DNA of 32,000 nt from Pyrolobus fumarii 1A (GCF_000223395.1 NC_015931.1:450001-482000), one strand, 5' to 3'; numbered from the stretch's first letter, positions 1,570 through 20,111 are shown. Notes: generated by a model not told the origin, from the sequence alone. A program made the numbers and translations.

Positions 1570-3252
1570 GTGTGGGTGTCTTTCCCCTCCTGCTCGAGGC
1601 GGGGCTCTGGCTGCATGGAGGGTCATGAGCCTCTCCTGCCTCTCTATGCTGGTGTTGGCGTCGCGGCTGTGAGGGTGTTCGGGTGGAGTGTTGGGGCGGA
1701 TGGCGTCCCGGTCTCTTGGGACCCGTTGGAGTGGATGGCTTGGCTCCGTTGGCCCCGCGAGGCTGTGGAGGCGTTCTCGACGCTCTATGGCCGCGTGTCA
1801 AGCGGGTGCGAGCGTGTCTCCCTGGTCTACCTGGACGCGGGGTCTCGCTCGTCGCCAGAGGCCCGCCGGAGCGTCTTCGCCGTGAAGCTCGCGGTGGTGC
1901 ACCGGGTGTCGGTGGGTGGCGTTGTTGAGGAGCGTGTTGTGCACCCGTTGTTGAGGGGTGAGGGTGGGGCGGGGCTCCCTCTGCTCGTGGGCCGCGGGGG
2001 AGACCGGGCGAGGCAGGCTATCACCTACATTGTGGAGCTCGGGGCTGTCTACTCGCTGCTCCGCGGTGGTTGCGTGCTAGTCCTTAAGCACGGGCCTCTC
2101 GCGCAGCAGCTGCAACAGTACCTGCGGCCCAGCTACGACCTTGACGCTGACGTGCTGCACTCTGCGCTCGTATACTCGGGCGTCGAGCGCGACGAGGCTG
2201 ACGCGATTGTGGATGCGGCTAGGGTTGAGGGTGGGATGGTCAACGCCGGTGTGGCTATACTCGAGCTGCTCTCTCGCATAGCGCGTCTAGCCGCGAGCGA
2301 CGGGTCTGTGGCGGTGGCGGGCGTCACTGAGGACGTGACGGGTAGCCGTGTGCTAGCCTCGAGGCTCCTAGCCGAGGCTGCGAGGGCCGCGCTCGACGCG
2401 TATGAGGGCGGTGTGTTGAAGATCGACGGGCTGCGCTCCACAATCGCTCCGAGGATAGCGAGTCTCGTGAGGCTCGGCCGCGCGGCGCTAGACCGTCTGT
2501 GCGGGGACGGGGGGTGCCTATCCAGGTGCCTGGGCCTAGGCGGCATGGATGACCGGGAGCTGCAGGCGTTTACGGTTGGTCTCGTGGAGGCGCTCCACCG
2601 TAGGCTCTTCTACGAGAGGCAGGTGCCGCTAAGGTCGGCTTCCATTGCTGCGCTCGAGGCGGCGGTATACACGGAGGTTGGCAGGCTCCTCGAGACTAGC
2701 GACGCGTCCATAATCCTCGCTGGGCATTGCCTCGCCGGCCCCATAGCCGTGACGAGAGCCTGGCGTAGGGACGCTCTGCTCGAACTCCTAAAGTGGACCG
2801 TGAGCGACGTTAAGCGCGACGTGAAGAAGGAGCTTTTGACTAGCTTCGCAGACGTGTATGCCTATGTCGTGCCGGGGGATCCGCCTACATGCGCGCGGAT
2901 AGAGGAGCTTCTCGAGTCGAGAGGGTTGGCGGGGAGGGTAGACCCGTGGCTCCTCGTTAGGCTCCAGAGGGTCTACCCGCCGGTCCGCGTCGACACCGTC
3001 GCGCCCAGTGGCGAGGAGGAGGGCGTGGCGCTCGAGAAGCTGAGGGGGCTAGCTGCGCTCGTCTACCTGGCCTCCAGCGTATCCCTCCACGGGTACCCGG
3101 CTGGGCTCCTGGTGGCTGATGCCAGGTCTCGTGTGACGCTAGGCGAGGCGTCTATACTCGAGGAGCTTGCGAGGAGGCTCGCAGAAAGGTTACAGCCCTA
3201 CGCGGCCATCCTAAGACACTGGAGGTTGCGACGAGCAACGGTGGTAGACTAG
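1570..3252 (+). CDS. NurA-like nuclease domain protein (long, divergent). The alternative ATG start at 1615 is plausible
   Basis: This 560-aa ORF ends 2 nt before the HerA-like gene. NurA-like landmarks include LVYLDAGSRSS (N-terminal acidic strand), VLVLKHGPL (position of the DGSL-type motif), VAGVTEDVTGSRVL (GVsKxS-like) and the C-terminal HGYPAGLLVADARSRV (YPyxL..AD/H..aR-like). The motif mapping was done by eye only. Confidence 0.5.
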   Translation: MWVSFPSCSRRGSGCMEGHEPLLPLYAGVGVAAVRVFGWSVGADGVPVSWDPLEWMAWLRWPREAVEAFSTLYGRVSSGCERVSLVYLDAGSRSSPEARRSVFAVKLAVVHRVSVGGVVEERVVHPLLRGEGGAGLPLLVGRGGDRARQAITYIVELGAVYSLLRGGCVLVLKHGPLAQQLQQYLRPSYDLDADVLHSALVYSGVERDEADAIVDAARVEGGMVNAGVAILELLSRIARLAASDGSVAVAGVTEDVTGSRVLASRLLAEAARAALDAYEGGVLKIDGLRSTIAPRIASLVRLGRAALDRLCGDGGCLSRCLGLGGMDDRELQAFTVGLVEALHRRLFYERQVPLRSASIAALEAAVYTEVGRLLETSDASIILAGHCLAGPIAVTRAWRRDALLELLKWTVSDVKRDVKKELLTSFADVYAYVVPGDPPTCARIEELLESRGLAGRVDPWLLVRLQRVYPPVRVDTVAPSGEEEGVALEKLRGLAALVYLASSVSLHGYPAGLLVADARSRVTLGEASILEELARRLAERLQPYAAILRHWRLRRATVVD

Positions 3253-3254
3253 CC

Positions 3255-5288
3255 TTGAGCAATGTACAGCCCATGGGCTACATAGTGAGGCTCTCGAGCT
3301 ACGTGGAGGCGGAGGCCGTGGCGCTGACGCCGCTCGAGGAGAGCCTCCAGAGGGGCCAGATAGTAGAGGTGGTTGACCACAGCCAGGGCGGCGCGAGGTA
3401 CCTCGCGGTCATAACGGACGTCTCGGAGACCGAGCCGCACCCCCTCATAGACCCGGAGGCGTTCCAGGCCCTCCTCCGCGAGGCTAGAGCCGAGCACGTT
3501 GATACGACCGAGCTCCTCCGCGCGATGCTCGACCCCACGAGCCCCTTCCGCTTCGCCACAACAGTCCACCTCAGGCTACGCCTCCTAGGCAGGTTGGTGG
3601 GCGACGCACTCGGGGATATCGGCAGGCCGCCTAGACCCAGGTCCACCATCCACCTGCCCGAGGCGGGCCTACTAGAGCAGCTCCTCTGCCCTAACCGCCC
3701 CAGTGTGGTCCCCATAGGGAGGCTCTCGCTGAGGAGCGACGTGAGAGTCTGCATAGACCTCGATAGGCTCAACACGCACATGGCGGTCCTCGGGCAGACG
3801 GGGTCGGGGAAGACGGAGACCGTCAAGAGGCTCGTCTACGAGACTATACGCTCGTGGCTGGCGCGGGGCACCCCACGCCGAGGAGTCATCGTGATGGACG
3901 TCGCAGGGGAGTATACGGGCTACCCCTACCGCCCGCCGAGCGCCACACCCCTCCTCGAGGCCCTGGCGCGCCACGGTATACAGCCGCGCCTCACGATAAT
4001 CGTGCCCTTCGACCCGCTCTACGCGCACCCTGCTCTCGTCGAGGCCGGAGTAGCCGAGCTGGCAGGGAGGCTCTCGAGGCTATACCGTGGAGCCCGCGCG
4101 GCGGGCGTAGTCCTCCACGCGAGGAGCCCGACAGCCACGCTGGTACACCCGCCGCCGCGCACCGAGCTAACCCCCGCCGAGCTCCAAGCCCTCCTCGCCA
4201 CCGCCGAGATGCTCGTAGTGGCGGCGCCGCTGCCCGACACGCTACCCCTGGGCCTCCTCCTCGAGCTCGGCGCGTTCAACGAGGACGCGGAGTACACGGC
4301 TGCCCTACACGAGGCCCTAGAGGAGCTAGAGGAGTATAACATCGTGTCGTCGGTTACGCTGCTAAGCGAGCTGGCTAGGATAGCTGTCGACGCCCGCCCC
4401 CGCAGCAGAGACTTCACATACCCCACGAGCATAGACACAACCTCCATATGCAGCGCCGCCGACGAGGCCCAACTGCTGAACGCGATAAGGTCGCAGCTGT
4501 CCATGGCCATAGGGGCTGACCCTCAGAGCCTAGCCGGTACTAGGCTACAGGAGCCCAGCGTGTGGGTATCGAGGCTGACTGGCGACTACCTCGACCCAAG
4601 CCTAGAGGCCCTGAGGGCGACATGCGCCTCGAGCCCGGGGCGCATACGCGAGAGGCTCTTGGGCGTGGCGCGAGCCGCCTACCGCATAGCGAGGAGCGAC
4701 GTGAGATCCAGGAAGGCGCTCTACAGGAGGCTCTCTAGGATAGCCAGGGTAGCGTCACCCGCCCTCAACCCGCTCGCGGCTAGACTCATAGCCTGGAGGG
4801 TCTACAACGGCTTCACGATACTCCACCTGGCGCCGCCCTCAGTAGGCGGCGTCAACCACCCGCTCGTAACCTGGCTCCTCAACGAGGTGTTCGAGGAGGC
4901 TGTTAGGGGCTACACGCTCGACCAGAGGATGCTCGTTGTCGTAGAGGAGGCTCACAACCTGGCACCGTCACGCGAGGACACCTTCTCCAAGAGGATGTTG
5001 GTCAGGTACGCGAGGGAGGGGAGAAAGTGGGGACTAGGCCTCGTGATAGTCACGCAGAGGCCGGTCGGCGTAGACCCCACCATACTCAGCCAAACAGCCA
5101 CACTAGTAGCACTCCGCATGACAAACCCGGAGGACATCCAGGCGGTGAAAAGCAGCGTCGAGAGCGCCACAGCAGAACTCGTCGAGAGACTACCAGACCT
5201 AGACCGCGGCGAGGCACTAGCCTCGGGCAACGCGCTACCAGAACGCCGCATACCACTCCTAGCCAGGATAGACATGGTCGGCCACTAG
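3255..5288 (+). CDS. HerA/DUF87-type hexameric ATPase (FtsK-HerA superfamily)
   Basis: Walker A is VLGQTGSGKTETVKRL (about 3793-3816). Walker B is MLVVVEEAHNLAP (about 4931-4960), followed by REGRKWGLGLVIVTQRP. The N-terminus looks like a HAS barrel (GYIVRL...GQIVEV...YLAVITDV). The stretch between Walker A and B is unusually long, about 370 aa. The TTG at 3255 or the ATG at 3273 could be the start. Confidence 0.8.
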   Translation: MSNVQPMGYIVRLSSYVEAEAVALTPLEESLQRGQIVEVVDHSQGGARYLAVITDVSETEPHPLIDPEAFQALLREARAEHVDTTELLRAMLDPTSPFRFATTVHLRLRLLGRLVGDALGDIGRPPRPRSTIHLPEAGLLEQLLCPNRPSVVPIGRLSLRSDVRVCIDLDRLNTHMAVLGQTGSGKTETVKRLVYETIRSWLARGTPRRGVIVMDVAGEYTGYPYRPPSATPLLEALARHGIQPRLTIIVPFDPLYAHPALVEAGVAELAGRLSRLYRGARAAGVVLHARSPTATLVHPPPRTELTPAELQALLATAEMLVVAAPLPDTLPLGLLLELGAFNEDAEYTAALHEALEELEEYNIVSSVTLLSELARIAVDARPRSRDFTYPTSIDTTSICSAADEAQLLNAIRSQLSMAIGADPQSLAGTRLQEPSVWVSRLTGDYLDPSLEALRATCASSPGRIRERLLGVARAAYRIARSDVRSRKALYRRLSRIARVASPALNPLAARLIAWRVYNGFTILHLAPPSVGGVNHPLVTWLLNEVFEEAVRGYTLDQRMLVVVEEAHNLAPSREDTFSKRMLVRYAREGRKWGLGLVIVTQRPVGVDPTILSQTATLVALRMTNPEDIQAVKSSVESATAELVERLPDLDRGEALASGNALPERRIPLLARIDMVGH

Positions 5289-5518: not shown

Positions 5519-6694
5519 TCAGGGTTTGTGCCCATGCAGCTTGGCCACGGCTTCCTGGTATACCCTGTGCGGGTCTAGATCGAGGAGAGTCTCTACACCC
5601 TCCCGGTATCCCAGCTCTATCACCGTACGGTAGACTGGGTATTGGGGCTTGTAGCGTATGCCGTCGCGCCCCCGCGGGTACACCGGATAAACTATGTTGT
5701 AGGTTGTGAGTATCTGGCCTAGTGCGTGTAAGTGTGGCTCGCGGAGAGGCGCGATGTCGTTGTTTATGAGTTCGTAGGCTAGTCTTATCACTTCTCGCGG
5801 CTCAAGCTCACGGCGGAAGATCTCCGCGCTTAGCACGTTCCTAGCCCGGCTGAGCCCAGTCTCAACCTCCGCTATCCACATTGGCACACGTTCCTCCACC
5901 ACTGTGTTTCTGTCGAGCATGCACAACTCGGGCAGGTAGCCAGGCGTCCCGCCCACAAGACCCAGCACCTCGTCCACATCTACACCGCAGCTTTTCAAGC
6001 TCACATACTCCTTGTAGAGAGCCCTGAAATGATCGACATCCAGATGCTCGACTAGCATCCATGCCGTGGAGTACCCGTGGAGCTTTGACAAGACGAGGTC
6101 TGTAGCCGTGAAACCCTCGCTTACAGTTAACACTATAGTGATGTTCGAGTAGTGCGGATCCTTTGCTAGTAGGCCTGCGAGAGCCTCCAGGTCGTCAAGA
6201 GCATCGAGGTACTTGCTCGCCGGGTCGCTTTTATGCATGTAGCGGGGCAGCAGGTGGAACTCGTCTATAAAGAGGATTATCCGCGTGGAGGCATACTCGC
6301 GGATAACGTCTATGAGTACATCGATGGCATGGTATGTCAGCTGGAGTAGCCCAGTAGACCTATCGTCGAGGTCTTTGAGAACTTCCAGAAGCCGCTCGGC
6401 TAGATTCTTTTTATCGACTAGTAGACCTCTCGTCTCAAGCGCCCTGACAAGATGCTGACCCCGGAGCCGACGCGCATCCACGTACACGGCTGCTATGCGG
6501 CCACGCTCTTGTAGCCCCCGGAGCCAGTACCGTACGAGCTCGCTCTTCCCGACGCCACGCGGCCCATAGACTATAACCGTCCTATGAGAGAAGACGAGTT
6601 TATCCAGCCTCTCGAGCTCCACGAGCCTATCGTAGAAGGCTGTGCCCAGCCCCGTACGGTAACCCCGATCAACATACACCGCTACCATCTCCAC
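5519..6694 (-). CDS. Archaeal AAA+ ATPase (Arch_ATPase/PF01637-like, with a C-terminal DUF234-type winged helix)
   Basis: The N-terminus reads FYDRLVELERLDKLV...VIVYGPRGVGKSELV (Walker A). ILFIDEFHLL is Walker B. The length of 391 aa is typical of the family. Confidence 0.8.
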   Translation of the reverse strand: MEMVAVYVDRGYRTGLGTAFYDRLVELERLDKLVFSHRTVIVYGPRGVGKSELVRYWLRGLQERGRIAAVYVDARRLRGQHLVRALETRGLLVDKKNLAERLLEVLKDLDDRSTGLLQLTYHAIDVLIDVIREYASTRIILFIDEFHLLPRYMHKSDPASKYLDALDDLEALAGLLAKDPHYSNITIVLTVSEGFTATDLVLSKLHGYSTAWMLVEHLDVDHFRALYKEYVSLKSCGVDVDEVLGLVGGTPGYLPELCMLDRNTVVEERVPMWIAEVETGLSRARNVLSAEIFRRELEPREVIRLAYELINNDIAPLREPHLHALGQILTTYNIVYPVYPRGRDGIRYKPQYPVYRTVIELGYREGVETLLDLDPHRVYQEAVAKLHGHKP

Positions 6695-6850: not shown

Positions 6851-7006
6851 CTACCTGAGATAGACTCGAGCTATACCACGAGAGTGGACGACAACCCTTC
6901 CCTCTAGGTGGTCATCCCTCAGCCTCACAGCGTGCTCAGAGTACGCCTCGGGGATAACCCACTTTATGATCACACTCGCATCGGCTACAACAGGCTTAGC
7001 GCGCAT
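6851..7006 (-). pseudogene. vapC: Truncated VapC-like PIN toxin (only about 51 codons remain)
   Basis: My own translation of the minus strand gives MRAKPVVADASVIIKWVIPEAYSEHAVRLRDDHLEGRVVVHSRGIARVYLR*. The ATG overlaps the VapB stop (gatgcgcgctaa). VVADASVII is the first PIN acidic motif. Intact VapC proteins are about 130 aa, and the rest of the domain is missing or frameshifted. Confidence 0.45.
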
Positions 7007-7220
7007 CCCTATCCTCCCTTACAAACTCGGCAGCAAGGTTGCCCTCCACCCGGCCTATACTCCGCCGGAGCCTCTCCATCTCATCTCTAAGCCTACGCGC
7101 CTTCTCCCTCCTGACAAGCTCCTCTAGGAACTCCCTAACAGCCGCAGAGTAGTTTATACCGAGCCTCTCCAGCTCCTCCTTAAGCCTCCTTGGCACCCTC
7201 ACACTAATGACGACACTCAC
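6996..7220 (-). CDS. vapB: Ribbon-helix-helix (CopG/VapB-like) antitoxin
   Basis: MSVVISVRVPRRLKEELERLGINYSAAVREFLEELV is a typical RHH N-terminus. The protein is 74 aa and is translationally coupled to the downstream PIN remnant. Confidence 0.7.
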   Translation of the reverse strand: MSVVISVRVPRRLKEELERLGINYSAAVREFLEELVRREKARRLRDEMERLRRSIGRVEGNLAAEFVREDRDAR

Positions 7221-7452: not shown

Positions 7453-8988
7453 CTAGCTCGTATGCTTCCGCGTCTTGATCTTGAACTTCTCGAGGTGTAT
7501 GCCTATAGTCTGCCAGGCGTTGGTGCCTCTTAGCATACCGCGCGTCTTCTCGGCTAGGCACGCTACGTGGAGTAGGGCGTATGCTGCTCTAGCGGCTCTC
7601 GCCCTAACGTCTATCTCGTCCCATCTCCACGGCTCGAGGCTTTGCCTGGCGGAGAGCACTCTCGTTATCTTGGAGGAGGGGTGGCTCCGCCATAGCGTGT
7701 ATGCCCCGGTGTCCTCGGTTACCAGTGTATACTTCTCGAGTATCAGGGGATCCATTCTTATCATCGCTGTGTCGGCTGGCGGCGGGTCGCTTGGCAGCAC
7801 AGGGGTCGTGGCCTGAAGCTCTCGTAGTAGCACGCCGGCTACTATCCTGCGTAGCACCTTCTCGGGGTCTCGGAGCCCAGCGTTCCTCTTGAGAGCCTCG
7901 GCTAGGCTCCTCTCTATCTCTGCCACGACGGCCCACGGTAGGGCTATGGATGCGCCCATTAGAGCCTCTATGTGCACCCCCTTGTAGACTAGGTTGGCGT
8001 CTACCAGCAGCCTATCACCCAGCGTGTAGAGCAGTGCCTCTCCGCGTCCATCCTCGCTCCCGGCTAGCCACCAGTAGAGGCCAGACGCCTCTGCGAGGGC
8101 GCGCACAACGAGGCCTGGTATCCCCTTGTCGCTCGAGGCTAGCTTCCCGGCATCCTCTGCCGCCTTCACCCAGCTCTCGGGTTTGCACCAGTCGTCCACG
8201 GTTATCTCTCCGAGGGGCGTCTCCAAGCTGAGCACGCACGGCGTACACTCGGCCCTGTCATAATCGTACCTGGCGGTGCCGCTGCACTCGATGTTCACCT
8301 GGAGGGCCTTGACGGCTATGCATGCGCGTAGGCTACCAGCCTCTACACCCACAGACTCTAGCAGCTCCCTCACCCTCAGCTTCCTCAACCATTTTGGCGC
8401 CTCGCGCCCCCTGGGAGGCTCCCACACCGGGTGTATGACGTAGAGGGGCTCGAGGGGCCTGGGTACGAGCGGGTAGGGTAGCCCAGTCCAAGGCCCCCAC
8501 CAGAAGTCCAGGTGGACCACGTTCGCCTCCGAGCCCTCGACGGACCCCGGCGTTACGCTCGCCAACGCGAGGGCAGCCGCGAGCCTCCTAGACCCGGGCG
8601 AGGTGCAGGACACTACACGCGGGAACCTGGCCGCGAGGTACTCTACAAGCCTCCTAGCAGCTCTCTCCAGGATACCGGGCGCGTCGCTAACCTCCACAAT
8701 AACGCCGGGGATGGCCACACCGGCATCGCTAACCACGCGCAGCGCACGCTCAGAGTCCGGCCTCGTCCTCGGAGTCGCCAGCACAACTACACCATCAACG
8801 CCATACTCCTCCGCCAGTCTCAGTATACACGAGATGAAGGAGAGCCTTGACTCCCTACCGACACACCCAGCCGCAACAGCCACAACACTAGCCCCACCCA
8901 ACACCGAGCCGATCACAGCCTCCGCGTCGCGCGGCAATCTCCCAGTCTCAACACCATCGAGGCTAGACACTCTAACTACACTCGCCAA
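7453..8988 (-). CDS. 511-aa protein with an N-terminal CARF-like Rossmann domain and a C-terminal PIN-like nuclease domain
   Basis: The N-terminal layout parallels the CARF at 1003-1488: VVAVAAGC..SFISCILRL..VVVLATPRT...EVSDAPGILERAARRLVEYLAARFPRVVSCTSPGSRRLAAALALA versus LVVLLGMSPGV...DDVTDEEGINELLEKLEEAT..AIIDVTGGRKLASIIAAM. The C-terminus carries PIN-type acidic residues in order: LLVDANLVYKG, AVVAEIERS, PADTAMIRMD, LVTEDTGA. The start is a TTG at 8988. Confidence 0.5.
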   Translation of the reverse strand: MASVVRVSSLDGVETGRLPRDAEAVIGSVLGGASVVAVAAGCVGRESRLSFISCILRLAEEYGVDGVVVLATPRTRPDSERALRVVSDAGVAIPGVIVEVSDAPGILERAARRLVEYLAARFPRVVSCTSPGSRRLAAALALASVTPGSVEGSEANVVHLDFWWGPWTGLPYPLVPRPLEPLYVIHPVWEPPRGREAPKWLRKLRVRELLESVGVEAGSLRACIAVKALQVNIECSGTARYDYDRAECTPCVLSLETPLGEITVDDWCKPESWVKAAEDAGKLASSDKGIPGLVVRALAEASGLYWWLAGSEDGRGEALLYTLGDRLLVDANLVYKGVHIEALMGASIALPWAVVAEIERSLAEALKRNAGLRDPEKVLRRIVAGVLLRELQATTPVLPSDPPPADTAMIRMDPLILEKYTLVTEDTGAYTLWRSHPSSKITRVLSARQSLEPWRWDEIDVRARAARAAYALLHVACLAEKTRGMLRGTNAWQTIGIHLEKFKIKTRKHTS

Positions 8989-9351: not shown

Positions 9352-10443
9352 TCAATGCCGTGCACCTACTAGCTTCTCTACTGCTCTCGTTATTCTCGGG
9401 TTGTTCTTTGCGAGCCTCTTTAGCATGTTTATTGTGTCCTGGGCTGCGAGTCTTGCGGCTTCTAGCGTGACGTGTAGGTTGTGGAGGGCTAGTGCTTTGG
9501 TGTCCCACCTCATCTCGTCAAGCGTGTCGAAGCGGGTGCAGGCGGGGCACGTGCAGTACTCGGAGGGTTTCAGCCTGGAGCCCCTCGCCTCTATCCGGGC
9601 TGGTAGCCTCCCGGCGAGGTAGTGCTCGGGTGGCGTGTACCAGAGTCTCTTGGCGGCAGCTATTATGAAGGTCTTCGAGTCCATCGAGTCGCCTCCAGCC
9701 GCGTACAATAGCGGTATGTTGACTGGGGAGGCGACGCCGAGGACGTGGAGCCACGCGCCCCGGGGCAGCGCGCTCCTCGCCTCTAGTAGCCTCTCGGTGA
9801 TGTAGGCTGGGTTTCCGCGGTGCGGCACCAGCCCGCCGACCGCGAATCCGTCCACCTCGTCGAGTCTTAGCCCCGCCCTCTCGCGCAGCTCGACCGCGAG
9901 CATCTCGAGGAGGGCTCGTAGCTCGCTGGCGTCGCGGTAGTGGAGGACTATGAGCAGCTTCATGCTCCTCCTCGTCCTCAGCTGGTAGGCCAACGCCGCG
10001 TTCCTAGCCGTAACCCTCAGCCTGTTGAGGACCTCCCCGTCCATCGCGCCGTGGAGGGGGTAGTCCAGGGTGAAGGCATAGTCCGCCCCGAAGCCCTCCT
10101 GCCTCCGGAGTATAGCCTCCACGAGCTCCTCCCCGGGCTCACCCGGGCTCCTCGGCCCCCTCCCCGCCCCATGCCTCCCGGCCAGGAGCCTCGTCTTGTC
10201 CCGGATGTAGAGGAATCCGCCCGAGTCAACCCACGCAGTGACGCTGGGGTCGAGGTGGGTATCCTTACGGTGGTGTGGGCGGAGAAAGTAAGCGTTGACC
10301 ATCGCGTGGTGGTGGCCCAGGCCCTCGGGGGGCGGGCGCCAGTAGGGCGGCGTGTTGCCACCCGCACCGAGGTTATGCACCGGGACTATCACGGGCCTTA
10401 CACTTCCCACCAAGAGTATCCCGAGGAGGCGCCGCGAGCCCAA
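9352..10443 (-). CDS. Short tRNA-guanine transglycosylase (TGT) superfamily protein lacking C-terminal PUA-type domains (arcTGT catalytic-domain-only or DpdA-like)
   Basis: TGT landmarks appear in order: VIVPV..., MVNAYFL, WVDSGGFLY (the DSGGF catalytic Asp motif), FTLDYP, AVGGLVP, LHVLGVASPVNIPLLYAAGGDSMDSKTFI, and the zinc motif CTCPAC...(about 20 aa)...LHNLH. At 363 aa it is shorter than typical archaeosine TGTs. The start is uncertain (TTG at 10443 or the GTG a few codons in). Confidence 0.7.
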   Translation of the reverse strand: MGSRRLLGILLVGSVRPVIVPVHNLGAGGNTPPYWRPPPEGLGHHHAMVNAYFLRPHHRKDTHLDPSVTAWVDSGGFLYIRDKTRLLAGRHGAGRGPRSPGEPGEELVEAILRRQEGFGADYAFTLDYPLHGAMDGEVLNRLRVTARNAALAYQLRTRRSMKLLIVLHYRDASELRALLEMLAVELRERAGLRLDEVDGFAVGGLVPHRGNPAYITERLLEARSALPRGAWLHVLGVASPVNIPLLYAAGGDSMDSKTFIIAAAKRLWYTPPEHYLAGRLPARIEARGSRLKPSEYCTCPACTRFDTLDEMRWDTKALALHNLHVTLEAARLAAQDTINMLKRLAKNNPRITRAVEKLVGARH

Positions 10444-10633
10444 CGCATAAGCCGTTGCACGCGGATAGGCGGGAGTTTCACACTAAACCCCGGGAGCAGC
10501 GTCAGCCACAACCTATACGCGTGGACCGCGAGTCCACAAACGGCCCACGATGCACCACAGGTAGGTGTGGAAGACGGCCCACCCGACCACACGCCACAGA
10601 GCCGCGTAGTCCCTGGGCACGGACGCCCTCCTG

Positions 10634-10969
10634 GTGACCCCACCCTGGTACAATGGGAGGCTCCAGTGGGCCGAGAAGCGGATACTCTGGGTCGTGGAGT
10701 GGCCGGTCGACCCGAGACACTCCGCCGTCCTCGCTTACAACGGGTCTAGGGTGGCGAGGGTCACGAGGGTCTACGTGGTCCTAGAGGAGCCGCTCATAGC
10801 CACGCCCGACAGACCAGAACCCGGGTACCTGTCCAGGGCGGCGAAGTGGTTCTGGGCGCTCTCCGGCGTAGCCAGCGGGATAGCCACGTGCACGGCGCGT
10901 ACCCCGGCCACGTCCCGGCCTACGCAGGCTCCAGGTGCACAGCGTAGACCGTCTGCCGTGACTGGGTAG
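10634..10969 (+). CDS. Hypothetical ORF with no recognisable motifs
   Basis: This is the only sizeable ORF in the 650 bp between the TGT-like gene and array 1. It has a GTG start and no domain signature I can recognise. Confidence 0.2.
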   Translation: MTPPWYNGRLQWAEKRILWVVEWPVDPRHSAVLAYNGSRVARVTRVYVVLEEPLIATPDRPEPGYLSRAAKWFWALSGVASGIATCTARTPATSRPTQAPGAQRRPSAVTG

Positions 10970-11091
10970 CCACCTCCCCCTCCACCCTCGAGGCCACCTC
11001 CTCCAGCTTCTTCACAACCTCCCGGATGAGCACAATCACCTCCTTGTAGGCCTTAATCCAGGTCTTCGAGGGTTACTCTGCAACCGCATGC

Positions 11092-14000
11092 CTTTCAATT
11101 CATTCTTGGTTGTTTCGCAATACTACGTGGTGAAGAGGTGCCGCCAGAGTCAGGCATTGACCTTTCAATTCATTCTTGGTTGTTTCGAGAGCATGACGTG
11201 TGTGTCACAACCGGCAAGAAGGGCGTGTGTATCTTTCAATTCATTCTTGGTTGTTTCCAGCGCCTGCTCCTAGGCCGTGACCGTGACGAGGAGACGGTCT
11301 ATGTCACCCTTTCAATTCATTCTTGGTTGTTTCGGGTGTGGTAGCCGAACGATAGCCTGGCTAGTGATAGTGTGTACTTTCAATTCATTCTTGGTTGTTT
11401 CCCAAACTTGCCACCAATGCCTCAGCCAACACCAAAACCGTAAGCTTTCAATTCATTCTTGGTTGTTTCTCCCCGCGATTGTCGATACGCCGGGTGTCGT
11501 TACCGTTGGCTTTCAATTCATTCTTGGTTGTTTCCTGTGTCCGCGCCCGGGGACACCCCTCCCTCAGCATGTGCTCCTTTCAATTCATTCTTGGTTGTTT
11601 CCCCTTGTAGCGAGCCACGGCCAACACACCAACCCGATGCTAGTTCTTTCAATTCATTCTTGGTTGTTTCACCGCTCTACGCCACCCCCTACCTGAACGT
11701 CACGACCGGCTTTCAATTCATTCTTGGTTGTTTCACAAAACGCGCGATATATAGACGCGCGCGGCTATAATATAATATAACGCGACTTTCAATTCATTCT
11801 TGGTTGTTTCCTCGATAGCTCTACGAATCGCCTCTGAGCGATTTATTCCACGCTTTCAATTCATTCTTGGTTGTTTCACGGATACGTCTCGCACAGACGT
11901 ACCTCTATCGTCACTTTATCTTTTCTTTCAATTCATTCTTGGTTGTTTCGAAACCCTCTTGACGGGAATGTGGCAGGGCAAGTGGAACTTTCAATTCATT
12001 CTTGGTTGTTTCCTACCAACGTGCTGGTGGCCGCAGCCAGCCTAGCCCCGGACATCCTTTCAATTCATTCTTGGTTGTTTCGGCGCTGCTGGAAGCCGTG
12101 GTGGAGTCTATACCGGTGCTGGACCTTTCAATTCATTCTTGGTTGTTTCTACCCGACTGCCAGGGGAGTACACGTTTACGCCACTAGCGAGTCACCATGG
12201 GTCTTTCAATTCATTCTTGGTTGTTTCGCTGCTGCAGCCTTTATTGCACAGAACGGCTCGTAGCTTACCTTTCAATTCATTCTTGGTTGTTTCCTCGAGA
12301 GCCTCTATGAGAGCGTTAGAGGCACTAGCAAGCTCACAGTGCTTTCAATTCATTCTTGGTTGTTTCTCCAATTGCCAGGATCCTCGAGAAGGAGTTAGGT
12401 GAAGTAGCCACTTTCAATTCATTCTTGGTTGTTTCCTAGGAGTTGAAGGGTTCGAAGGCTGAGGCTGGGATGATACTTTCAATTCATTCTTGGTTGTTTC
12501 CTCGTAGGCGAGGTGTACCGCTGGCGTGCCCATCGCCATTGCCTCCTTTCAATTCATTCTTGGTTGTTTCGTAGGGGGTTGCGGGTACGCTGCATGGTTG
12601 ACGAGCCGCTGGGCTTTCAATTCATTCTTGGTTGTTTCCCGAGCCCGAAGGAGCTTGGCGCGCGCGTCTTCAAGGGCGACTTTCAATTCATTCTTGGTTG
12701 TTTCCGATGGCAACGAGGTTGACGTGCACTTCGACCACCTGGCGCACTTTCAATTCATTCTTGGTTGTTTCGCGTTGGAGAGGCTGCTGGAGGAGCGGAG
12801 GGTTGACGCGAGCTTTCAATTCATTCTTGGTTGTTTCGCGTAGACCTTCAGCAGCGCCCCCCTGCTGGCCGCCTTGCCCAGCTTTCAATTCATTCTTGGT
12901 TGTTTCCAGTAGCATGCCGCTATACTACGAAGTGTTCGTGAAGTGCCTTTCAATTCATTCTTGGTTGTTTCACGCAGTGTAACCCGGGAGAGTACGCGTT
13001 CAACGTGTCAGGTCAGCTTTCAATTCATTCTTGGTTGTTTCATCATGGACTTCTTCAACCGCGTGAGCGTCGTTGAGCATACTTTCAATTCATTCTTGGT
13101 TGTTTCCGGGGTACGTGGTCACAACCGCATCACCGTGTGTGCAGCGAACCTTTCAATTCATTCTTGGTTGTTTCAAACCAGCGCCGTGCCTCGGAAACGG
13201 TGATTATGTAGAAATAGCCTTTCAATTCATTCTTGGTTGTTTCCTACGAATAGCATAGGCGGGCACCGTATCTACCTACCCGAGTATGGCTTTCAATTCA
13301 TTCTTGGTTGTTTCGCAACCCGGCCTAGCTGTAGCCATGCTTGTATGCTTCGCCATATACCTTTCAATTCATTCTTGGTTGTTTCAATAGCTCCACTACT
13401 TGGTCAACGGCGTACCCCATCCACTTCTTTCAATTCATTCTTGGTTGTTTCAGGCGAAGCCCGACGAGGTTGCCGCCGAGATATCTGGTATCCCTTTCAA
13501 TTCATTCTTGGTTGTTTCTAGGATAGAGACGGTGAAGGGCAACGGGGCGTTCTTCGAGACTAGTGCTTTCAATTCATTCTTGGTTGTTTCTGATTCTCCC
13601 ACCCGGCTGAGCGGTGATGACGGCAGCCTCCACTCTTTCAATTCATTCTTGGTTGTTTCAGGGCAGTAGGATTAGCGCCAGGAGTGGCGCGAGGGTTATC
13701 AAAAACTTTCAATTCATTCTTGGTTGTTTCTACCGACGAGCAGACGGCTACGCCGCGCACCCAGCGAGAGGCTATCGACTTTCAATTCATTCTTGGTTGT
13801 TTCTCCGCGCGCGAGATCCATCTCTCCCGCCCCCGCGCTTCGGGTAGCTTTCAATTCATTCTTGGTTGTTTCTCGCTCGAGGAGGTGAGGAGGCTGGCCC
13901 AGGAGGGTAGCTTTCAATTCATTCTTGGTTGTTTCGTCGCGTAGTATACGCGCCGCGGTGAGCACCCCGAGCTGCTCCTTTCAATTCATTCTTGGTTGTT

Positions 14001-16549
14001 TCCTGGCCGTGGCCCCTCTCGCAATCGGCCTCAGCTTCCTCCCTTTCAATTCATTCTTGGTTGTTTCGGAGAAGATGGCGGTCTCAGGGCCGCCGCCCGC
14101 GAGGCGGTCCCACTTTCAATTCATTCTTGGTTGTTTCATAGGGGGTCGTCTGGCAACACGACCTTCGAGATAACGTTCAACGTGACGAGCTTTCAATTCA
14201 TTCTTGGTTGTTTCCATCGAGGCTCTGGACTACCTCGCCGAGATGATAGACTATAGGGCTTTCAATTCATTCTTGGTTGTTTCGCCAGGCCCGAGGCGGT
14301 GAGGTTTGACAACGTGGAGAGGAACGGACTTTCAATTCATTCTTGGTTGTTTCACCTTGGCGTCCGGCAGTGGCGGGGCCGACGGCCCCACCAGGCCCCG
14401 CCTTTCAATTCATTCTTGGTTGTTTCGGATTGTTCTAGCATCTGCTCCGAACCCAAATCATAATTCGCTTTCAATTCATTCTTGGTTGTTTCCGTGGCAT
14501 AGTGATAGTGGCAACGCATACTGACATATTCCACGTCGGTCCTTTCAATTCATTCTTGGTTGTTTCTACGGCAGGAGCGCCGAGCAGGTTGAGCTCGCGA
14601 GCCTACTTTCAATTCATTCTTGGTTGTTTCTCTAGCTCTACGCTCACGTTGAGGGGCACGGCTCTCACCCCCTTTCAATTCATTCTTGGTTGTTTCCATG
14701 GGCGCGGTTGAGACCTTCGAGGACAGGATAGCCTCGACTTTCAATTCATTCTTGGTTGTTTCTCTATGGTGGATGGCGAGGACGGCGACATCTGGTACGA
14801 GCTTTCAATTCATTCTTGGTTGTTTCCCGTGTCCTGGTCACCAACCAGCTCCTAGCCCCGGGCGTGCGCGTGCAGCTCTTCGTACTTTCAATTCATTCTT
14901 GGTTGTTTCACGAGGTGAGAGACTTCACAGAGATAGCCCGCATAGTAGCAAAAACGCCTTTCAATTCATTCTTGGTTGTTTCTGGAACCGCCGCCACCGT
15001 TGGCCTGACGCTATTCGTGATTGCTTTCAATTCATTCTTGGTTGTTTCTCCGGATCCCCGCACCGCGTATAGAGGGTATGCGCGGGGGTATAACTTTCAA
15101 TTCATTCTTGGTTGTTTCACATGGAGGAGCCAAGGCTCATAACCGCGATACGCGAGAATGCTTTCAATTCATTCTTGGTTGTTTCCAGAAGTCTTACGAC
15201 GGATACTAGTGGTGCAAATAATGCTTTCAATTCATTCTTGGTTGTTTCACTACACGACCCTGCAAATTCCCATCGTGTCATAGTGTCATACTTTCAATTC
15301 ATTCTTGGTTGTTTCGCGGTCTGGAGCCCGGTGCACGGATCTACATCTACGATGTCTTTCAATTCATTCTTGGTTGTTTCCTGGCCGCCGCACTTGGCGT
15401 TGAGGGTGTGGAGGCAAGCGCTTTCAATTCATTCTTGGTTGTTTCACGAGGCAGTGTGTTAGTGACGATAGGCCGGTGTGTAGCGAGACTTTCAATTCAT
15501 TCTTGGTTGTTTCTTAACAGCGTACTTCAGCGCTTCGCGGACGCCAACGCGTACCTTTCAATTCATTCTTGGTTGTTTCCGCGTTGGTCTTGTAGCTCTC
15601 TGCGCCGGCGTCCACGCGGGAGTCGCTTTCAATTCATTCTTGGTTGTTTCCCCGCATGGGTCTACCCCTCTCCCGAGATGCGCAAGGTAGCGACCCTTTC
15701 AATTCATTCTTGGTTGTTTCGTAGCTCTCGATCCACCCGCGGAACACAGGGTCGGCATGCTTTCAATTCATTCTTGGTTGTTTCCAGCCTCACTAGAATC
15801 TCGTATATCTCGCGGGCTTGTTGTATCTTTCAATTCATTCTTGGTTGTTTCGCTCGGTGTTCAAGTCGGTGGTCTACGACCGTTGCGGGTGCGTCCAGAC
15901 TTTCAATTCATTCTTGGTTGTTTCAGTGATATGCTAGTCGGTGATTTATGGTGATAATAAACGTGCTACTTTCAATTCATTCTTGGTTGTTTCGTACTGA
16001 AAAGTGTTGGTCTACTTGATAAGCTAAGAATGTATCTTTCAATTCATTCTTGGTTGTTTCAATACAAAACAATCAAGATATTGACGGGCCTGCCTTTAGT
16101 AAATGTAACTTTCAATTCATTCTTGGTTGTTTCTTGTAATGCGGGGTGAGGGCATGAAACTGAGAGAATTAGTACTTTCAATTCATTCTTGGTTGTTTCG
16201 ACGTCGTAATGCAGATCATGACGCGGTGGTTGCTAACGCCACTCTTTCAATTCATTCTTGGTTGTTTCTGCGGATAGAGGAGGGGAGGATAACGTTTCCG
16301 ATCGGGGTGCTTTCAATTCATTCTTGGTTGTTTCAAAACGATCCGTGTCGAGTCCGGCCTCGCGATAATCAAGGTACTTTCAATTCATTCTTGGTTGTTT
16401 CAGCGTCACGTCCCAGCTTCTCCTGCCGTAGGCGGTGTACGCTGGTTGGTCTGGACTTTCAATTCATTCTTGGTTGTTTCTCGCTAGGAAGGGCCGCGAG
16501 TGGGTGGCTGCCGTGAGTTATGGGCTTTCAATTCATTCTTGGTTGTTTC
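11092..16549 (-). CRISPR. CRISPR array 1: 80 repeats and 79 spacers, transcribed from the minus strand with the leader at the right end
   Basis: The 25-bp repeat CTTTCAATTCATTCTTGGTTGTTTC (plus strand) was located by hand at 80 positions from 11092 to 16525. Spacers are 38-58 bp. Orientation is set by the ATTGAAAG 3' end of the reverse-complement repeat and by the conserved leader at 16550-16858. The repeats look identical on inspection. Confidence 0.98.
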
Positions 16550-17479: not shown

Positions 17480-18670
17480 CTAGGCGCCTGGGATGCCCCT
17501 GCCGATCGCCTCGCGTAGCCACGTGGGGCCCGCCGCGCCGGTTAGGGACGCGAGCGCCGCCAACGCGACGCGGTTAGCTGGCGCGATGCTGTCTAGCGCG
17601 CCGCACGGCCCGCCGCCCCCGCACTCCCCTACCCCCTCCTCCACCTCTACCCTCGTATCCACCTCCCCACACTCCCTATTCCACTCGTAAACCCCTAGGT
17701 ACTCGCCACACCCCAGCTGGAGCACGTTCAGCCTGGTCAGGTGTTTTAGTAGCGAGTGGTGCTCGGGTGGCAGCGAGTAAGCCTCCTCGAGGGGCATGGG
17801 GCCCTCCACGAGGCGCATGAGCACGTCCCGCGCCTCGCCCCGCCGTGCAGCGGCCAGCGCCTCTAGCACGGCGCGCTTGTATGCTCTCAGCCTCCTGCGG
17901 TAAGCCGCCCTAGGCGAGCTGGACGCGAGCACCTCCTGGATCAACGCGGGGTGCCCGCCAACCACGTCTAGAAGCTCGTCATGCTCCCTCGCGTTGAGGG
18001 CCTCGGCTAGGCTCCTGGCGTCGACGCGCGTCATCTCGCCGAGGTAGAAGGTGTCGAGGTAGTCCACGCCGGGGGCCTCCCGGTACAGCGTCTCGTATAG
18101 CCCGTAGTCGCTGGTGACCAGGAGGGCGCGGAAGGAGTAAGGGTGCTGCTCTTGTAGCGTGGCGAGCAGCTTCACAAAGCTCCACACGTGGAGCCCTAGG
18201 CCCGTGATGAGGTTCTGCGCCTCGTCTATAACGAGGACGAGCTTCACACCCTCCCTCTCACACCTCTCGACGGCGGCGGACAGGGCGTCACCGATGACCT
18301 CCAGTGGCGTCCTAGGGGGCGCCACCCTACCCAGATCGACACCCATCTTCTCGCGCAGGATCGAGGCCACAGCCTCCACAAGAGCCCTCCTAGCGAGGCC
18401 GCCGACACCCTCCAGGCTAGACACGAGCCTCCCAGCCAACAGCCTAACGTCGCGCACCGGCTCGAGAAGCTGGAGGTATACCACCAGGTACGCCCGGGGG
18501 TCTAGACGCTCGCGGAGACTAGACGCCAGGGTAGACTTCCCGATGCCACTGGGCCCCACGAGCACCGTGACGAGCCGCGAGCCCCTCTCTTCGACAAGCT
18601 CCTCCAGCCTCCGCAGCTCAACCTCCCTACCAACAATCCTCAACCAGCCGCAACCCCCGGCGCGGTACAC
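17480..18670 (-). CDS. Archaeal AAA+ ATPase (Arch_ATPase/PF01637-like), the second copy in the window
   Basis: The N-terminus reads IVGREVELRRLEELVEE..LVTVLVGPSGIGKSTL (Walker A). LVLVIDEAQNL is Walker B. The length is 396 aa. Confidence 0.8.
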   Translation of the reverse strand: MYRAGGCGWLRIVGREVELRRLEELVEERGSRLVTVLVGPSGIGKSTLASSLRERLDPRAYLVVYLQLLEPVRDVRLLAGRLVSSLEGVGGLARRALVEAVASILREKMGVDLGRVAPPRTPLEVIGDALSAAVERCEREGVKLVLVIDEAQNLITGLGLHVWSFVKLLATLQEQHPYSFRALLVTSDYGLYETLYREAPGVDYLDTFYLGEMTRVDARSLAEALNAREHDELLDVVGGHPALIQEVLASSSPRAAYRRRLRAYKRAVLEALAAARRGEARDVLMRLVEGPMPLEEAYSLPPEHHSLLKHLTRLNVLQLGCGEYLGVYEWNRECGEVDTRVEVEEGVGECGGGGPCGALDSIAPANRVALAALASLTGAAGPTWLREAIGRGIPGA

Positions 18671-19487: not shown

Positions 19488-20111
19488 GTGCGGCTCCGTT
19501 ATAGGTGTTTGAGTGTTGCCGGGCGCAAGGGCGGGGGCTTGAAAGCTGTCAAAGTCGCTTGTTTCGCCGATGAGGGTGGCTCCTTCACGCCATGTAGTAG
19601 CGTCTGCGTTGCTCTCGTGTGCTTCGAGAAGGACGCTAGCCTTGATGCCACGCCGGGCGGGCTCTACGAGAGGCTGGCTGGGCTCCTCGGCTGGCGCCGG
19701 GGCGAGCTTAAATGGAGGAGTGTGAAGAAGGCTGCGAGGCGCAGGGGCCTGGATGTATCGGGTGTTCTCGGGGCTATACTCGAGGCCAGCCTCTGTTACA
19801 GTGTCGTGAGGGGGCATGTGGGGTCTAGTAGTGAGACCGGCTTGGTGAAGGGGGAGCTTCTCCTCGAGGCAGTGTCAAGAGTCTCCGGGTGCATGCGCGG
19901 CTACAGCGTCTCGCTCGTTGTCGACGCTCACCTGGCTGGTAGCGGTACCGTTAGGCGTGCCGGGAGGGTACTAGGCGCGGGCTACACGAGGATCGGCGAT
20001 AGTAGGGTGTATCGCGGCGTTCAGCTTGCAGATCTCCTGGCGGGCGCGTGTAGCGAGGGTCTCCTCGACCCCGGCTGGGGCTGCCGCGTAGCCCCGACAA
20101 GCCGGGGGTAG
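19488..20111 (+). CDS. DUF3800-like protein (true start probably the TTG at 19539)
   Basis: VKVACFADEGGS resembles the N-terminal D-E-S/G-G motif. The C-terminal IGDSRVYRGVQLADLLAG resembles the DS....QlADl motif of DUF3800. The first 17 codons of the listed ORF look non-coding. Confidence 0.5.
   Translation: MRLRYRCLSVAGRKGGGLKAVKVACFADEGGSFTPCSSVCVALVCFEKDASLDATPGGLYERLAGLLGWRRGELKWRSVKKAARRRGLDVSGVLGAILEASLCYSVVRGHVGSSSETGLVKGELLLEAVSRVSGCMRGYSVSLVVDAHLAGSGTVRRAGRVLGAGYTRIGDSRVYRGVQLADLLAGACSEGLLDPGWGCRVAPTSRG

What the first reader, a model, noticed from the sequence alone, without database searches (positions are those of the whole stretch)
7453..8988. 511-aa candidate CARF-like sensor fused to a PIN nuclease
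Seen in sequence: the N-terminal 150 aa or so repeat, element by element, the secondary-structure and motif layout of the bona fide CARF at 1003-1488. The DxTGGxK loop is replaced by CTSPGSRR. The C-terminal 150 aa or so carry the four ordered acidic positions of a PIN domain (LVDAN, EIERS, DTAMIRMD, TEDTG). About 190 aa of unknown function (WWGPWTGLPYPLVPRP...) lie between them. Established knowledge: CARF domains are usually fused to HEPN, PD-(D/E)xK or similar effectors and are activated by cyclic oligoadenylates. Computational surveys list CARF-PIN architectures, but I know of no experimental characterisation. Inference: this may be a ligand-gated PIN RNase or DNase acting as a CRISPR accessory effector. 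The altered loop motif could mean a different ligand.
Basis: partly seen in the sequence, partly recalled or inferred. Interest (0 to 1): 0.65.

Follow-up and report, generated by a model that had tools for sequence, protein, structure and literature searches.

The report
Catalogued CARF–PIN CRISPR-signalling nuclease homologue
The ORF is a real, conserved archaeal gene (Pyrolobus fumarii Pyrfu_0490) whose protein joins a CARF nucleotide-signal sensor to a PIN nuclease; this family is already listed in CARF surveys and a relative has been crystallised with cyclic tetra-adenylate, so the finding is correct but not new.

Summary
Observation confirmed. The 511-codon ORF lies on the minus strand (7453-8988) and every quoted motif is present. 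It is Pyrfu_0490 of Pyrolobus fumarii 1A, annotated as hypothetical. Pfam, NCBIfam and PDB sequence searches find nothing. The PADLOC profile PDLC01984 'CARF_m3--CARF_PIN' matches it end to end (E = 4.7e-190), so the family is already catalogued. An AlphaFold model built on 37 homologues (pLDDT 94.5) shows three parts: a Rossmann-like CARF domain, a probable winged-helix middle domain, and a PIN-like α/β domain. Its best PDB match, over the full length, is SiRe_0806 with and without cA4 (9JXX/9JXW, 'PIN domain-containing protein'), which belongs to the same CARF_m3 clade. In 91 full-length relatives the four PIN acidic positions are invariant or nearly so (D329, E356, D/E405, D425). The 'SPGSRR' loop aligns with canonical 'TGGxK'. 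The cA4-bound relative has 'TPGRK', so the altered loop does not by itself imply a new ligand. The gene sits in a CRISPR-cas supercluster (type I-A genes, two arrays, other CARF genes), and a 2014 survey lists a Cas10 elsewhere in the genome. Close orthologues mostly lie outside cas loci. Most likely function: a cOA-gated PIN nuclease (inferred). Low novelty.

The parts
7453..8988 (-). Whole CDS of Pyrfu_0490 (511 codons from TTG 8986-8988; NCBI start is GTG 8968-8970, 505 aa; stop codon 7453-7455)
8896..8985 (-). N-terminal extension (residues 1-30: one β-strand and one helix), conserved only in the closest (Pyrodictiaceae-type) homologues
8428..8895 (-). CARF domain (residues 31-186): β1 34-39, α1 44-61, β2 65-70, α2 75-87, β3 94-99, α3 105-120, β4 123-127, α4 133-143, β5 155-159, β6 181-185
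   Evidence: Model pLDDT above 90. Foldseek matches to Csm6, Can2, Card1, Crn1, Cam1, Csa3 and Cad1 at probability about 1.0. hhalign against the window's Crn1-like CARF gives P = 0.009.
8584..8607 (-). β4-α4 loop CTSPGSRR (residues 127-134), the position of the canonical CARF D-x-T-G-G-x-K ligand loop
   Evidence: Aligned to VTGGRK of the Crn1-like CARF and to VTGGTK of the paralogue Pyrfu_0473. Family consensus is [ST]-[PSA]-[GA]-S-R. SiRe_0806 has TPGRK.
8458..8505 (-). Hyper-conserved insert in the β5-β6 hairpin: F161-W-W-G-P-W166-T-G-L-P-Y171-P172-L-V-P175-R176
   Evidence: W166 91/91, P172 91/91, Y171 90/91, P175 89/91, F161 87/91. Also present in the paralogue Pyrfu_0473 as WW..ETGFYPRVPR. 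Role unknown.
8035..8427 (-). Middle region (residues 187-317): probable winged-helix module (helices 198-201, 205-211, 219-233; β-hairpins 238-263) with invariant N231, then two linker helices (269-282, 289-300) and a short β-hairpin
   Evidence: Secondary structure of the model. N231 is 91/91. HHpred annotation of HTH for this family in PMC4012209 supplement 2. Not independently verified here.
7609..8034 (-). PIN-like nuclease domain (residues 318-459). Acidic residues: D329 (7999-8001), E356 (7918-7920), D405 (7771-7773), D425 (7711-7713). T423-x-D425 is a 'TxD' signature.
   Evidence: Conservation. α/β alternation in the model. Full-length structural match to 9JXW, 'PIN domain-containing protein'. 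In-register but weak hhalign matches to two Pfam-PIN VapCs, P = 0.0026 and 0.059. HHpred 96.3 % to COG1412 for family member APE_2119.1.
7456..7608 (-). C-terminal tail (residues 460-510): long helix 460-485, helix 490-498, β-strand 502-507

Best explanation
Pyrfu_0490 is a member of the CARF_m3 clade of CARF-(winged-helix)-PIN proteins. Proposed mechanism, by analogy with other CARF effectors and therefore inferred: the CARF domains dimerise and bind a cyclic oligoadenylate made by a type III Cas10 complex when foreign RNA is detected. The ligand is most likely cA4, as in the crystallised clade member SiRe_0806. Binding is passed through the conserved β5-β6 insert and the middle domain to the C-terminal PIN domain. 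The four acidic residues of that domain (D329, E356, D405, D425) hold Mg2+/Mn2+ and cleave RNA, or possibly single-stranded DNA. This would give collateral nuclease activity that slows the infected cell. Shown here: the gene is real and conserved, the three-domain architecture, clade membership, and conservation of the catalytic residues. Inferred: the ligand, the activation, the substrate and the link to CRISPR.
For: The PADLOC profile PDLC01984 'CARF_m3--CARF_PIN' matches residues 33-505 at E = 4.7e-190. All 37 aligned relatives hit PDLC01984 and PDLC01983, and 31 hit PDLC01182 'CARF+PIN'. The AlphaFold model on 37 sequences has pLDDT 94.5 and pTM 0.93. Its best PDB matches are 9JXX/9JXW, SiRe_0806 with and without cA4, over about 515 columns (probability 1.0, E = 1.6e-7), followed by Csm6, Cad1, Card1, Can2, Crn1, Cam1 and Csa3. 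9JXW is named 'PIN domain-containing protein' and is the orthologue of SSO1365 (E = 1.3e-106). Both hit PDLC01982 'CARF_m3--CARF_PIN'. The PIN acidic residues and the TxD motif are near-invariant in 91 relatives. The window is a CRISPR-cas supercluster. It holds an 80-repeat array 2.1 kb away and a 32-repeat array, plus Cas1, Csa1, Csa3 and Cas3-HD, a Crn1-like CARF and HerA. P. fumarii is listed with a Cas10 (GI 347523000) in PMC4012209 supplement 9. The Metallosphaera yellowstonensis clade member lies between a type III-D cassette (Cas10, Csm3, Cas5) and a type I-A cassette. In one MAG a CARF7 stand-alone CARF gene abuts the homologue.
Against: No Pfam, NCBIfam or PDB sequence model of CARF or PIN reaches significance on this protein. 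Profile-profile comparison with SSO1365/SiRe_0806 is not significant (probability 0.17), although the motifs align in register. PIN active-site geometry could not be measured because no coordinates or domain-only fold search were available. The ligand loop lacks the canonical D-x-T-G-G-x-K. There are no type III genes within the 32-kb window. The closest orthologues (L001, L002, L007) have housekeeping neighbours and no cas genes. Makarova 2014 scored most members as not CRISPR-linked. The one published biochemical test of a clade member (ST0035) found weak cA4 crosslinking and no RNase activation.
Confidence: 0.6

Rival explanations
1. A CRISPR-independent sensor-nuclease. The CARF domain, with its altered SPGSRR loop and invariant W/Y/P insert, binds some other nucleotide or RNA-end signal, as the CARF of RtcR does. 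The PIN domain then acts as a stress or toxin-like RNase unrelated to type III signalling.
For: The closest orthologues are not next to cas genes. Makarova 2014 lists most members of the family as 'unknown/no' for CRISPR linkage. The ligand loop is non-canonical. ST0035 was not activated by cA4. The gene lies among toxin-antitoxin modules.
Against: Clade member SiRe_0806, with a similar TPGRK loop, was crystallised with cA4. Sulfolobales members sit inside type III/I-A loci. Other relatives are next to CARF7 or Csa3 genes. P. fumarii has a Cas10 and this gene lies in its cas supercluster.
Confidence: 0.22
2. Mainly a regulator or signal-degrading protein. The CARF domain acts as a ring nuclease or cOA sponge, and the winged-helix module binds DNA as in Csa3. 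The PIN domain would have a secondary or self-limiting role and would not be the main effector.
For: The N-domain's structural neighbours include the ring nucleases Sso2081 and Sis0455, and Csa3. A winged-helix-like module is predicted. CARF-based self-limitation is established for Csm6.
Against: The PIN catalytic residues are the most conserved positions in the protein, which argues that nuclease activity is the selected function. Ring-nuclease catalytic residues were not identified. DNA binding was not tested.
Confidence: 0.13
3. The ORF is a chance reading frame in GC-rich DNA, or a decayed pseudogene.
For: The genome is GC-rich (about 60-65 %) and has many long spurious ORFs on both strands. 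The start codon is ambiguous: gene callers give 476, 494, 505 or 511 aa.
Against: There are 111 homologous clusters with a conserved full-length architecture, invariant motif residues and a very confident fold prediction.
Confidence: 0.01

Closest known systems
SiRe_0806 of Sulfolobus islandicus (PDB 9JXW apo, 9JXX with cA4; orthologue of SSO1365; PADLOC PDLC01982 CARF_m3--CARF_PIN)
   Same: Same CARF_m3 clade label. Best full-length structural match to the model. Same order of motifs: T-P-G-R-K loop, aromatic/proline β5-β6 segment (FGYVPF), DTN, E, D, TxD.
   Different: No significant sequence or profile similarity. It is shorter (about 430 aa), and Makarova 2014 lists its family as 'no_HTH'. 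It keeps Asp before the TPG loop where the target has Cys. I could not find the paper that describes it.
[quoted passage not shown]
   Same: Detectably homologous: the target hits PDLC01983 at 1e-19 over the PIN domain, and the Metallosphaera protein hits PDLC01984 at 3e-25. Same CARF-HTH-PIN architecture.
   Different: About 430 aa, from Sulfolobales, and embedded in type III-D/I-A loci. The target's subfamily is mostly outside cas loci. ST0035 crosslinked cA4 weakly and showed no RNase activation.
Pyrfu_0473, the 550-aa paralogue about 17 genes away (L010:14727-16379)
   Same: 27 % identity over the CARF domain, including the W..G..YP..PR insert. Listed as CARF_HTH_PIN in Makarova 2014.
   Different: It keeps the canonical DVTGGTK ligand loop. 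BLASTP did not align the C-terminal half.
Csm6/Csx1 (CARF-HEPN) and Can1/Can2/Card1 (CARF-PD-(D/E)xK) type III ancillary nucleases
   Same: An N-terminal CARF sensor followed by a C-terminal nuclease. The CARF domains are structural neighbours. The proposed logic of cOA-gated collateral cleavage is the same.
   Different: The effector domain is PIN rather than HEPN or PD-(D/E)xK, there is an extra winged-helix-like module, and the ligand loop is non-canonical.
VapC-type PIN toxins (Pfam PF01850)
   Same: Four ordered acidic residues and a TxD motif. Weak matches in the correct register to two VapCs.
   Different: No Pfam PIN hit. It is fused to sensor domains and is not paired with a VapB antitoxin.

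Membership tests
CARF domain superfamily | Rossmann-like α/β fold with a six-stranded sheet (β1-α1 ... β5-β6 hairpin) | tested here: met
   Model pLDDT is above 90 over residues 31-186 with alternating β/α elements. Foldseek gives probability about 1.0 to the CARF domains of Can2, Card1, Crn1 (Sso2081, Sis0455), Cam1, Cad1, Csa3 and Csm6.
CARF domain superfamily | Canonical ligand-loop motif after β4 (D-x-T-G-G-x-K/R) | tested here: not met
   The loop reads C-T-S-P-G-S-R-R, and the family consensus is [ST]-[PSA]-[GA]-S-R. It is at the homologous position and keeps the small-residue turn and the basic residue. cA4-bound SiRe_0806 has D-I-T-P-G-R-K.
CARF domain superfamily | Significant match to curated CARF sequence models (Pfam/NCBIfam) | tested here: not met
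   No Pfam or NCBIfam hit. Only the PADLOC/Makarova CARF_m3 profiles match.
CARF domain superfamily | Binds a cyclic oligoadenylate or related nucleotide as a homodimer | not testable with these tools
   Needs binding assays or a structure with ligand bound. The only support is the analogy to 9JXX.
PIN-domain nucleases | Four conserved acidic residues in order (after β1, in the helix after β2, after β3, after β4), plus T/S-x-D | tested here: met
   D329 91/91, E356 91/91, D405 90/91 acidic, D425 90/91, T423 90/91 T or S. Their positions relative to the predicted strands 325-328, 346-350, 395-396 and 420-423 fit the PIN layout.
PIN-domain nucleases | Three-layer α/β/α fold with the acidic residues converging on a metal site | tested here: inconclusive
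   The secondary-structure order fits, and the full-length match to 9JXW, 'PIN domain-containing protein', covers this domain. No domain-only fold search or coordinate inspection was possible. The viral fold library gave nothing.
PIN-domain nucleases | Match to Pfam PIN models (PF01850, PF13638 and others) | tested here: not met
   No hit for the target or for 37 relatives. There are only sub-threshold PIN_4 hits: E = 0.042 in fragment P0048 and E = 0.0053 in the SSO1365/SiRe_0806 pair. hhalign against single VapCs gives P = 0.0026 and 0.059, in register. The literature reports HHpred 96.3 % for APE_2119.1.
CARF_m3 CARF-PIN clade (Makarova 2020 profiles as distributed in PADLOC: PDLC01982-01984) | Full-length match to a clade profile | tested here: met
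   PDLC01984: E = 4.7e-190, protein residues 33-505 against profile positions 2-433 of 433.
CARF_m3 CARF-PIN clade (Makarova 2020 profiles as distributed in PADLOC: PDLC01982-01984) | CARF at the N-terminus, PIN at the C-terminus, conserved across members | tested here: met
   Most of the 111 relatives match over the full length. Motifs are conserved in 91 members.
Type III CRISPR ancillary (cOA-activated) effectors | Encoded in or next to a type III (cas10) locus | tested here: not met
   The window holds type I-A genes, two arrays and CARF genes but no cas10. A Cas10 is listed elsewhere in the genome, about 43 locus tags away. The criterion is met for the Metallosphaera relative but not for L001, L002 or L007.
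Type III CRISPR ancillary (cOA-activated) effectors | Nuclease activity switched on by cOA | not testable with these tools
   A biochemical test is required. The only published test of a clade member (ST0035 with cA4) was negative for activation.

The most novel reading that the evidence does not exclude
The Pyrodictiaceae-type subfamily (PDLC01984) has three distinguishing features: a Cys/Pro-S-P-G-S-R-R loop in place of D-x-T-G-G-x-K, an invariant W166/Y171/P172 insert in the CARF β5-β6 hairpin, and genes that mostly lie away from cas loci. It may therefore have been repurposed to sense a signal other than cA4 or cA6. Candidates are another nucleotide second messenger or RNA ends with a 2',3'-cyclic phosphate. 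In that case it would control a PIN nuclease in a CRISPR-independent stress or defence pathway of hyperthermophilic archaea.
Probability: 0.2. Interest if true: 0.6.

Novelty: already known. Interest (0 to 1): 0.3.

Why it matters
CARF-PIN proteins are one of the few CARF effector classes with no functional mechanism in the literature I could search. The evidence I found is one negative cA4 activation test (ST0035) and one crystal structure whose paper I could not locate. Pyrfu_0490 comes from an organism that grows up to 113 °C. It could serve as a very stable example for biochemical work, and its subfamily could show whether a CARF with a non-canonical ligand loop still reads cOA. As a genome annotation, the practical result is that a 'hypothetical protein' can be relabelled as a CARF_m3 CARF-wHTH-PIN protein. 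It does not reveal a new kind of system.

Tried and rejected
(1) Pfam, NCBIfam and PDB sequence searches with the protein and with a 37-sequence profile gave no informative hits.

(2) The first AlphaFold run used only 5 sequences. It modelled the CARF domain but not the PIN region (pLDDT below 50), so I replaced it with a run on 37 sequences.

(4) I searched the viral fold library hoping PIN hits would surface without competition from CARF hits. Nothing meaningful came back.

(5) hhalign of the C-domain against a four-sequence VapC alignment failed, because the called ORF lacked β1 and the alignment had no diversity. Extended single VapCs gave only weak matches in the correct register.

(6) Pfam on short relatives that might have been stand-alone PINs gave only a PIN_4 hit at E = 0.042; these are probably fragments.

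(7) phmmer of a VapC against the PDB, meant to harvest PIN sequences, was unproductive.

(8) Literature searches for SiRe_0806, 9JXW/9JXX and CARF_m3 found no paper, and the Makarova 2020 paper is not held in the library.

(9) Walking the genome leftwards from the ORF at 447-926 failed because no gene with that product is on record. Walking from the Crn1-like CARF worked and reached the paralogue Pyrfu_0473 but not the Cas10 gene.

(10) I considered and rejected a chance ORF, and I rejected a degenerate, inactive PIN because the catalytic residues are invariant.

Full report
**Observation.** The ORF is real and lies on the minus strand, 7453-8988. It has a TTG start and 511 codons. The window comes from Pyrolobus fumarii 1A, and the protein is Pyrfu_0490, 'hypothetical protein'. 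NCBI aa from the GTG at 8968-8970. A TATAGA element about 24 nt upstream of that GTG fits a leaderless archaeal transcript (inference). Residue numbers below are those of my query window:7453-8985:-. That query accidentally dropped the start codon, so residue n equals ORF residue n+1 and NCBI residue n-5. Codon coordinates were verified.

**Is it a gene?** Yes. Four homologues at 41-53 % identity exist among 5.8 billion proteins. An exhaustive HMMER profile search of 1.84 billion representatives found 111 clusters (38 below 1e-30). Most are 450-540 aa and match over the full length. The family appears archaeal, since every recovered genome locus comes from Thermoproteota. They include Pyrolobus, Pyrodictium, Desulfurococcales and Metallosphaera.

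**What curated libraries say.** Pfam, NCBIfam and PDB sequence searches are silent. PADLOC-DB is not. Profile PDLC01984 'CARF_m3--CARF_PIN' matches residues 33-505 at E = 4.7e-190. The sister profile PDLC01983 matches the C-terminal domain at 1e-19. All 37 aligned relatives hit both profiles, and 31 hit PDLC01182 'CARF+PIN'.
- From my own knowledge, these profile names derive from the CARF census of Makarova et al. 2020, which I could not open.
- The earlier census (Makarova 2014, PMC4012209) already lists a family 'CARF_HTH_PIN_archaeal_new'. Its members include the P. fumarii paralogue Pyrfu_0473, Hbut_1444, APE_2119.1, ST0035 and MetMK1DRAFT_00004160. Most are scored as not CRISPR-linked.
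- That paper's HHpred table gives CARF 92 %, PIN 96.3 % (COG1412) and MarR-type HTH 95 % for members of this family.
- Shah 2018 (PMC6546367) lists cluster 104 (Msed_1167) as 'CARF+PIN'. It reports that ST0035 crosslinked cA4 weakly and showed no RNase activation.

**Structure.** With five sequences AlphaFold modelled only the N-domain. With 37 sequences the model is very confident, at pLDDT 94.5 and pTM 0.93.
- Residues 31-186 form a β-α Rossmann-like domain.
- Residues 160-180 form a long loop between β5 and β6.
- Residues 198-263 form three helices and then β-hairpins, which looks like a winged helix.
- Two linker helices follow.
- Residues 318-459 alternate β and α elements as a PIN domain does.
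- A helical tail ends the protein.

Foldseek against the PDB puts 9JXX/9JXW first. This is SiRe_0806 of Sulfolobus islandicus, with and without cA4. The match spans about 515 alignment columns (probability 1.0, E = 1.6e-7, TM 0.39-0.50). Next come Csm6, Cad1, Card1, Can2, the ring nucleases Sis0455 and Sso2081, Cam1 and Csa3.

I identified SiRe_0806 by taking the SSO1365 sequence from the 2014 supplement and searching the PDB with it. 9JXW matches at 1.3e-106 and is named 'PIN domain-containing protein'. SSO1365 and SiRe_0806 hit PDLC01982, also labelled CARF_m3--CARF_PIN. The nearest solved structure is therefore a cA4-bound CARF-PIN protein of the same clade. Direct profile-profile similarity to it is not significant (probability 0.17), although the PIN motifs align in register.

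**Conservation.** These counts come from 91 full-length relatives.

| Position | Conservation |
|---|---|
| D329 | 91/91 |
| E356 | 91/91 |
| D405 | 73 D + 17 E |
| D425 | 90/91 |
| T423 | 87 T + 3 S |
| W166, P172, N231, P350 | 91/91 each |
| Y171 | 90/91 |
| P175 | 89/91 |
| F161 | 87/91 |

- The PIN catalytic set is therefore under strong selection.
It is not part of a separate unknown domain.
- The β4-α4 loop has the consensus [ST]-[PSA]-[GA]-S-R.
- hhalign places the target's TSPGSRRLAA opposite VTGGRKLAS of the window's Crn1-like CARF (1003-1488), with P = 0.009 over 108 colinear columns.
- BLASTP places the same loop opposite DVTGGTK of the paralogue Pyrfu_0473, which also has the W..G..YP..PR insert.
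- cA4-bound SiRe_0806 has DITPGRK at this position, so the altered loop does not in itself point to a new ligand.

Single VapC sequences with Pfam PIN domains align weakly but in register. D329 and E356 align at P = 0.0026, and the TxD motif aligns at P = 0.059.

**Context.** The window is part of a CRISPR-cas supercluster containing:
- an 80-repeat array at 11092-16549 and a 32-repeat array at 23827-25977 with identical 25-nt repeats;
- Cas1, Csa1, Csa3 and Cas3-HD, with further ORFs downstream that look like type I-A genes but were not scanned;
- a Crn1-like CARF;
- HerA.

No cas10 lies in the window. Makarova 2014 lists a P. fumarii Cas10 (GI 347523000), about 43 locus tags upstream.

Among relatives the picture is mixed:
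- The Metallosphaera member sits between type III-D and I-A cassettes.
- One MAG has a CARF7 stand-alone CARF gene abutting the homologue, and another has Csa3 2.4 kb away.
- The closest orthologues (L001, L002, L007) have housekeeping neighbours.

**Mechanism.** The best-supported reading is a cOA-gated PIN nuclease, probably gated by cA4, that serves type III signalling in trans (confidence about 0.6). The ligand, the activation and the substrate are all inferred. The rivals are:
- a CRISPR-independent sensor-nuclease (about 0.22), favoured by the non-cas context of orthologues and by the negative ST0035 result;
- a mainly regulatory or ring-nuclease role (about 0.13).

**Novelty.** The architecture, the clade and even this subfamily's profile are already in public catalogues, and a clade member has been crystallised with cA4. 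What remains open is biochemical: the ligand, the substrate, and the roles of the invariant W/Y/P insert and of N231.

Noticed in passing
window 11092-16549 (+) and 23827-25977 (-): Two CRISPR arrays with the same 25-nt repeat, CTTTCAATTCATTCTTGGTTGTTTC. They have 80 and 32 copies, all perfect, and face in opposite directions on either side of the adaptation genes.
   Followed up: partly
window 6996-7220 (-) and 6851-7006 (-): Directly downstream of the target lies a 74-aa RHH/CcdA-like antitoxin ORF (Pfam CcdA, 5.9e-6). It overlaps a 51-aa ORF that starts like a VapC PIN toxin (VVADASVIIKW) but is truncated. This may be a decayed vapBC module.
   Followed up: partly
window 1570-3252 (+) and 3255-5288 (+): A 560-aa protein has no hit in Pfam, NCBIfam, PADLOC or PDB sequences. 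It is translationally coupled to a HerA ATPase that also matches PADLOC's 'HerA, Type III coevolved' model, and it sits next to the Crn1-like CARF gene. It may be an uncharacterised HerA partner in a cas neighbourhood.
   Followed up: partly
window 9352-10443 (-): A divergent tRNA-guanine transglycosylase-like protein lies between the target and the CRISPR array, on the same strand as the target. Pfam TGT scores 1.7e-12, and all NCBIfam equivalogs (TgtA, ArcS, DpdA) are far below their cut-offs. Its role is unknown.
   Followed up: no
window 5519-6694 (-) and 17480-18670 (-): Two paralogous 'archaeal ATPase' (PF01637/STAND-like) genes flank the target and the array.
   Followed up: no
L010:14727-16379 (P. 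fumarii, about 6 kb beyond the left edge of the window): This is the paralogue Pyrfu_0473 (550 aa, CARF_HTH_PIN in Makarova 2014). It keeps the canonical DVTGGTK loop and shares the W..G..YP..PR insert. A MazE-PIN (PF01850) pair lies directly before it and a UPF0175-DUF3368 pair a few genes away. The region is rich in toxin-antitoxin modules.
   Followed up: partly
L005:9120-9935 and 9935-11401: In a Thermoproteota MAG, a stand-alone CARF7 (Csm6/Crn1-type) CARF gene ends exactly where the CARF-PIN homologue starts. This suggests an operon pairing a possible ring nuclease with the effector.
   Followed up: partly
window 19488-20111 (+) and 29255-30541 (-): A 207-aa ORF and a 428-aa ORF within the cas cluster have no Pfam hit. 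By position, the 428-aa ORF may be the type I-A large subunit (Cas8a).
   Followed up: no
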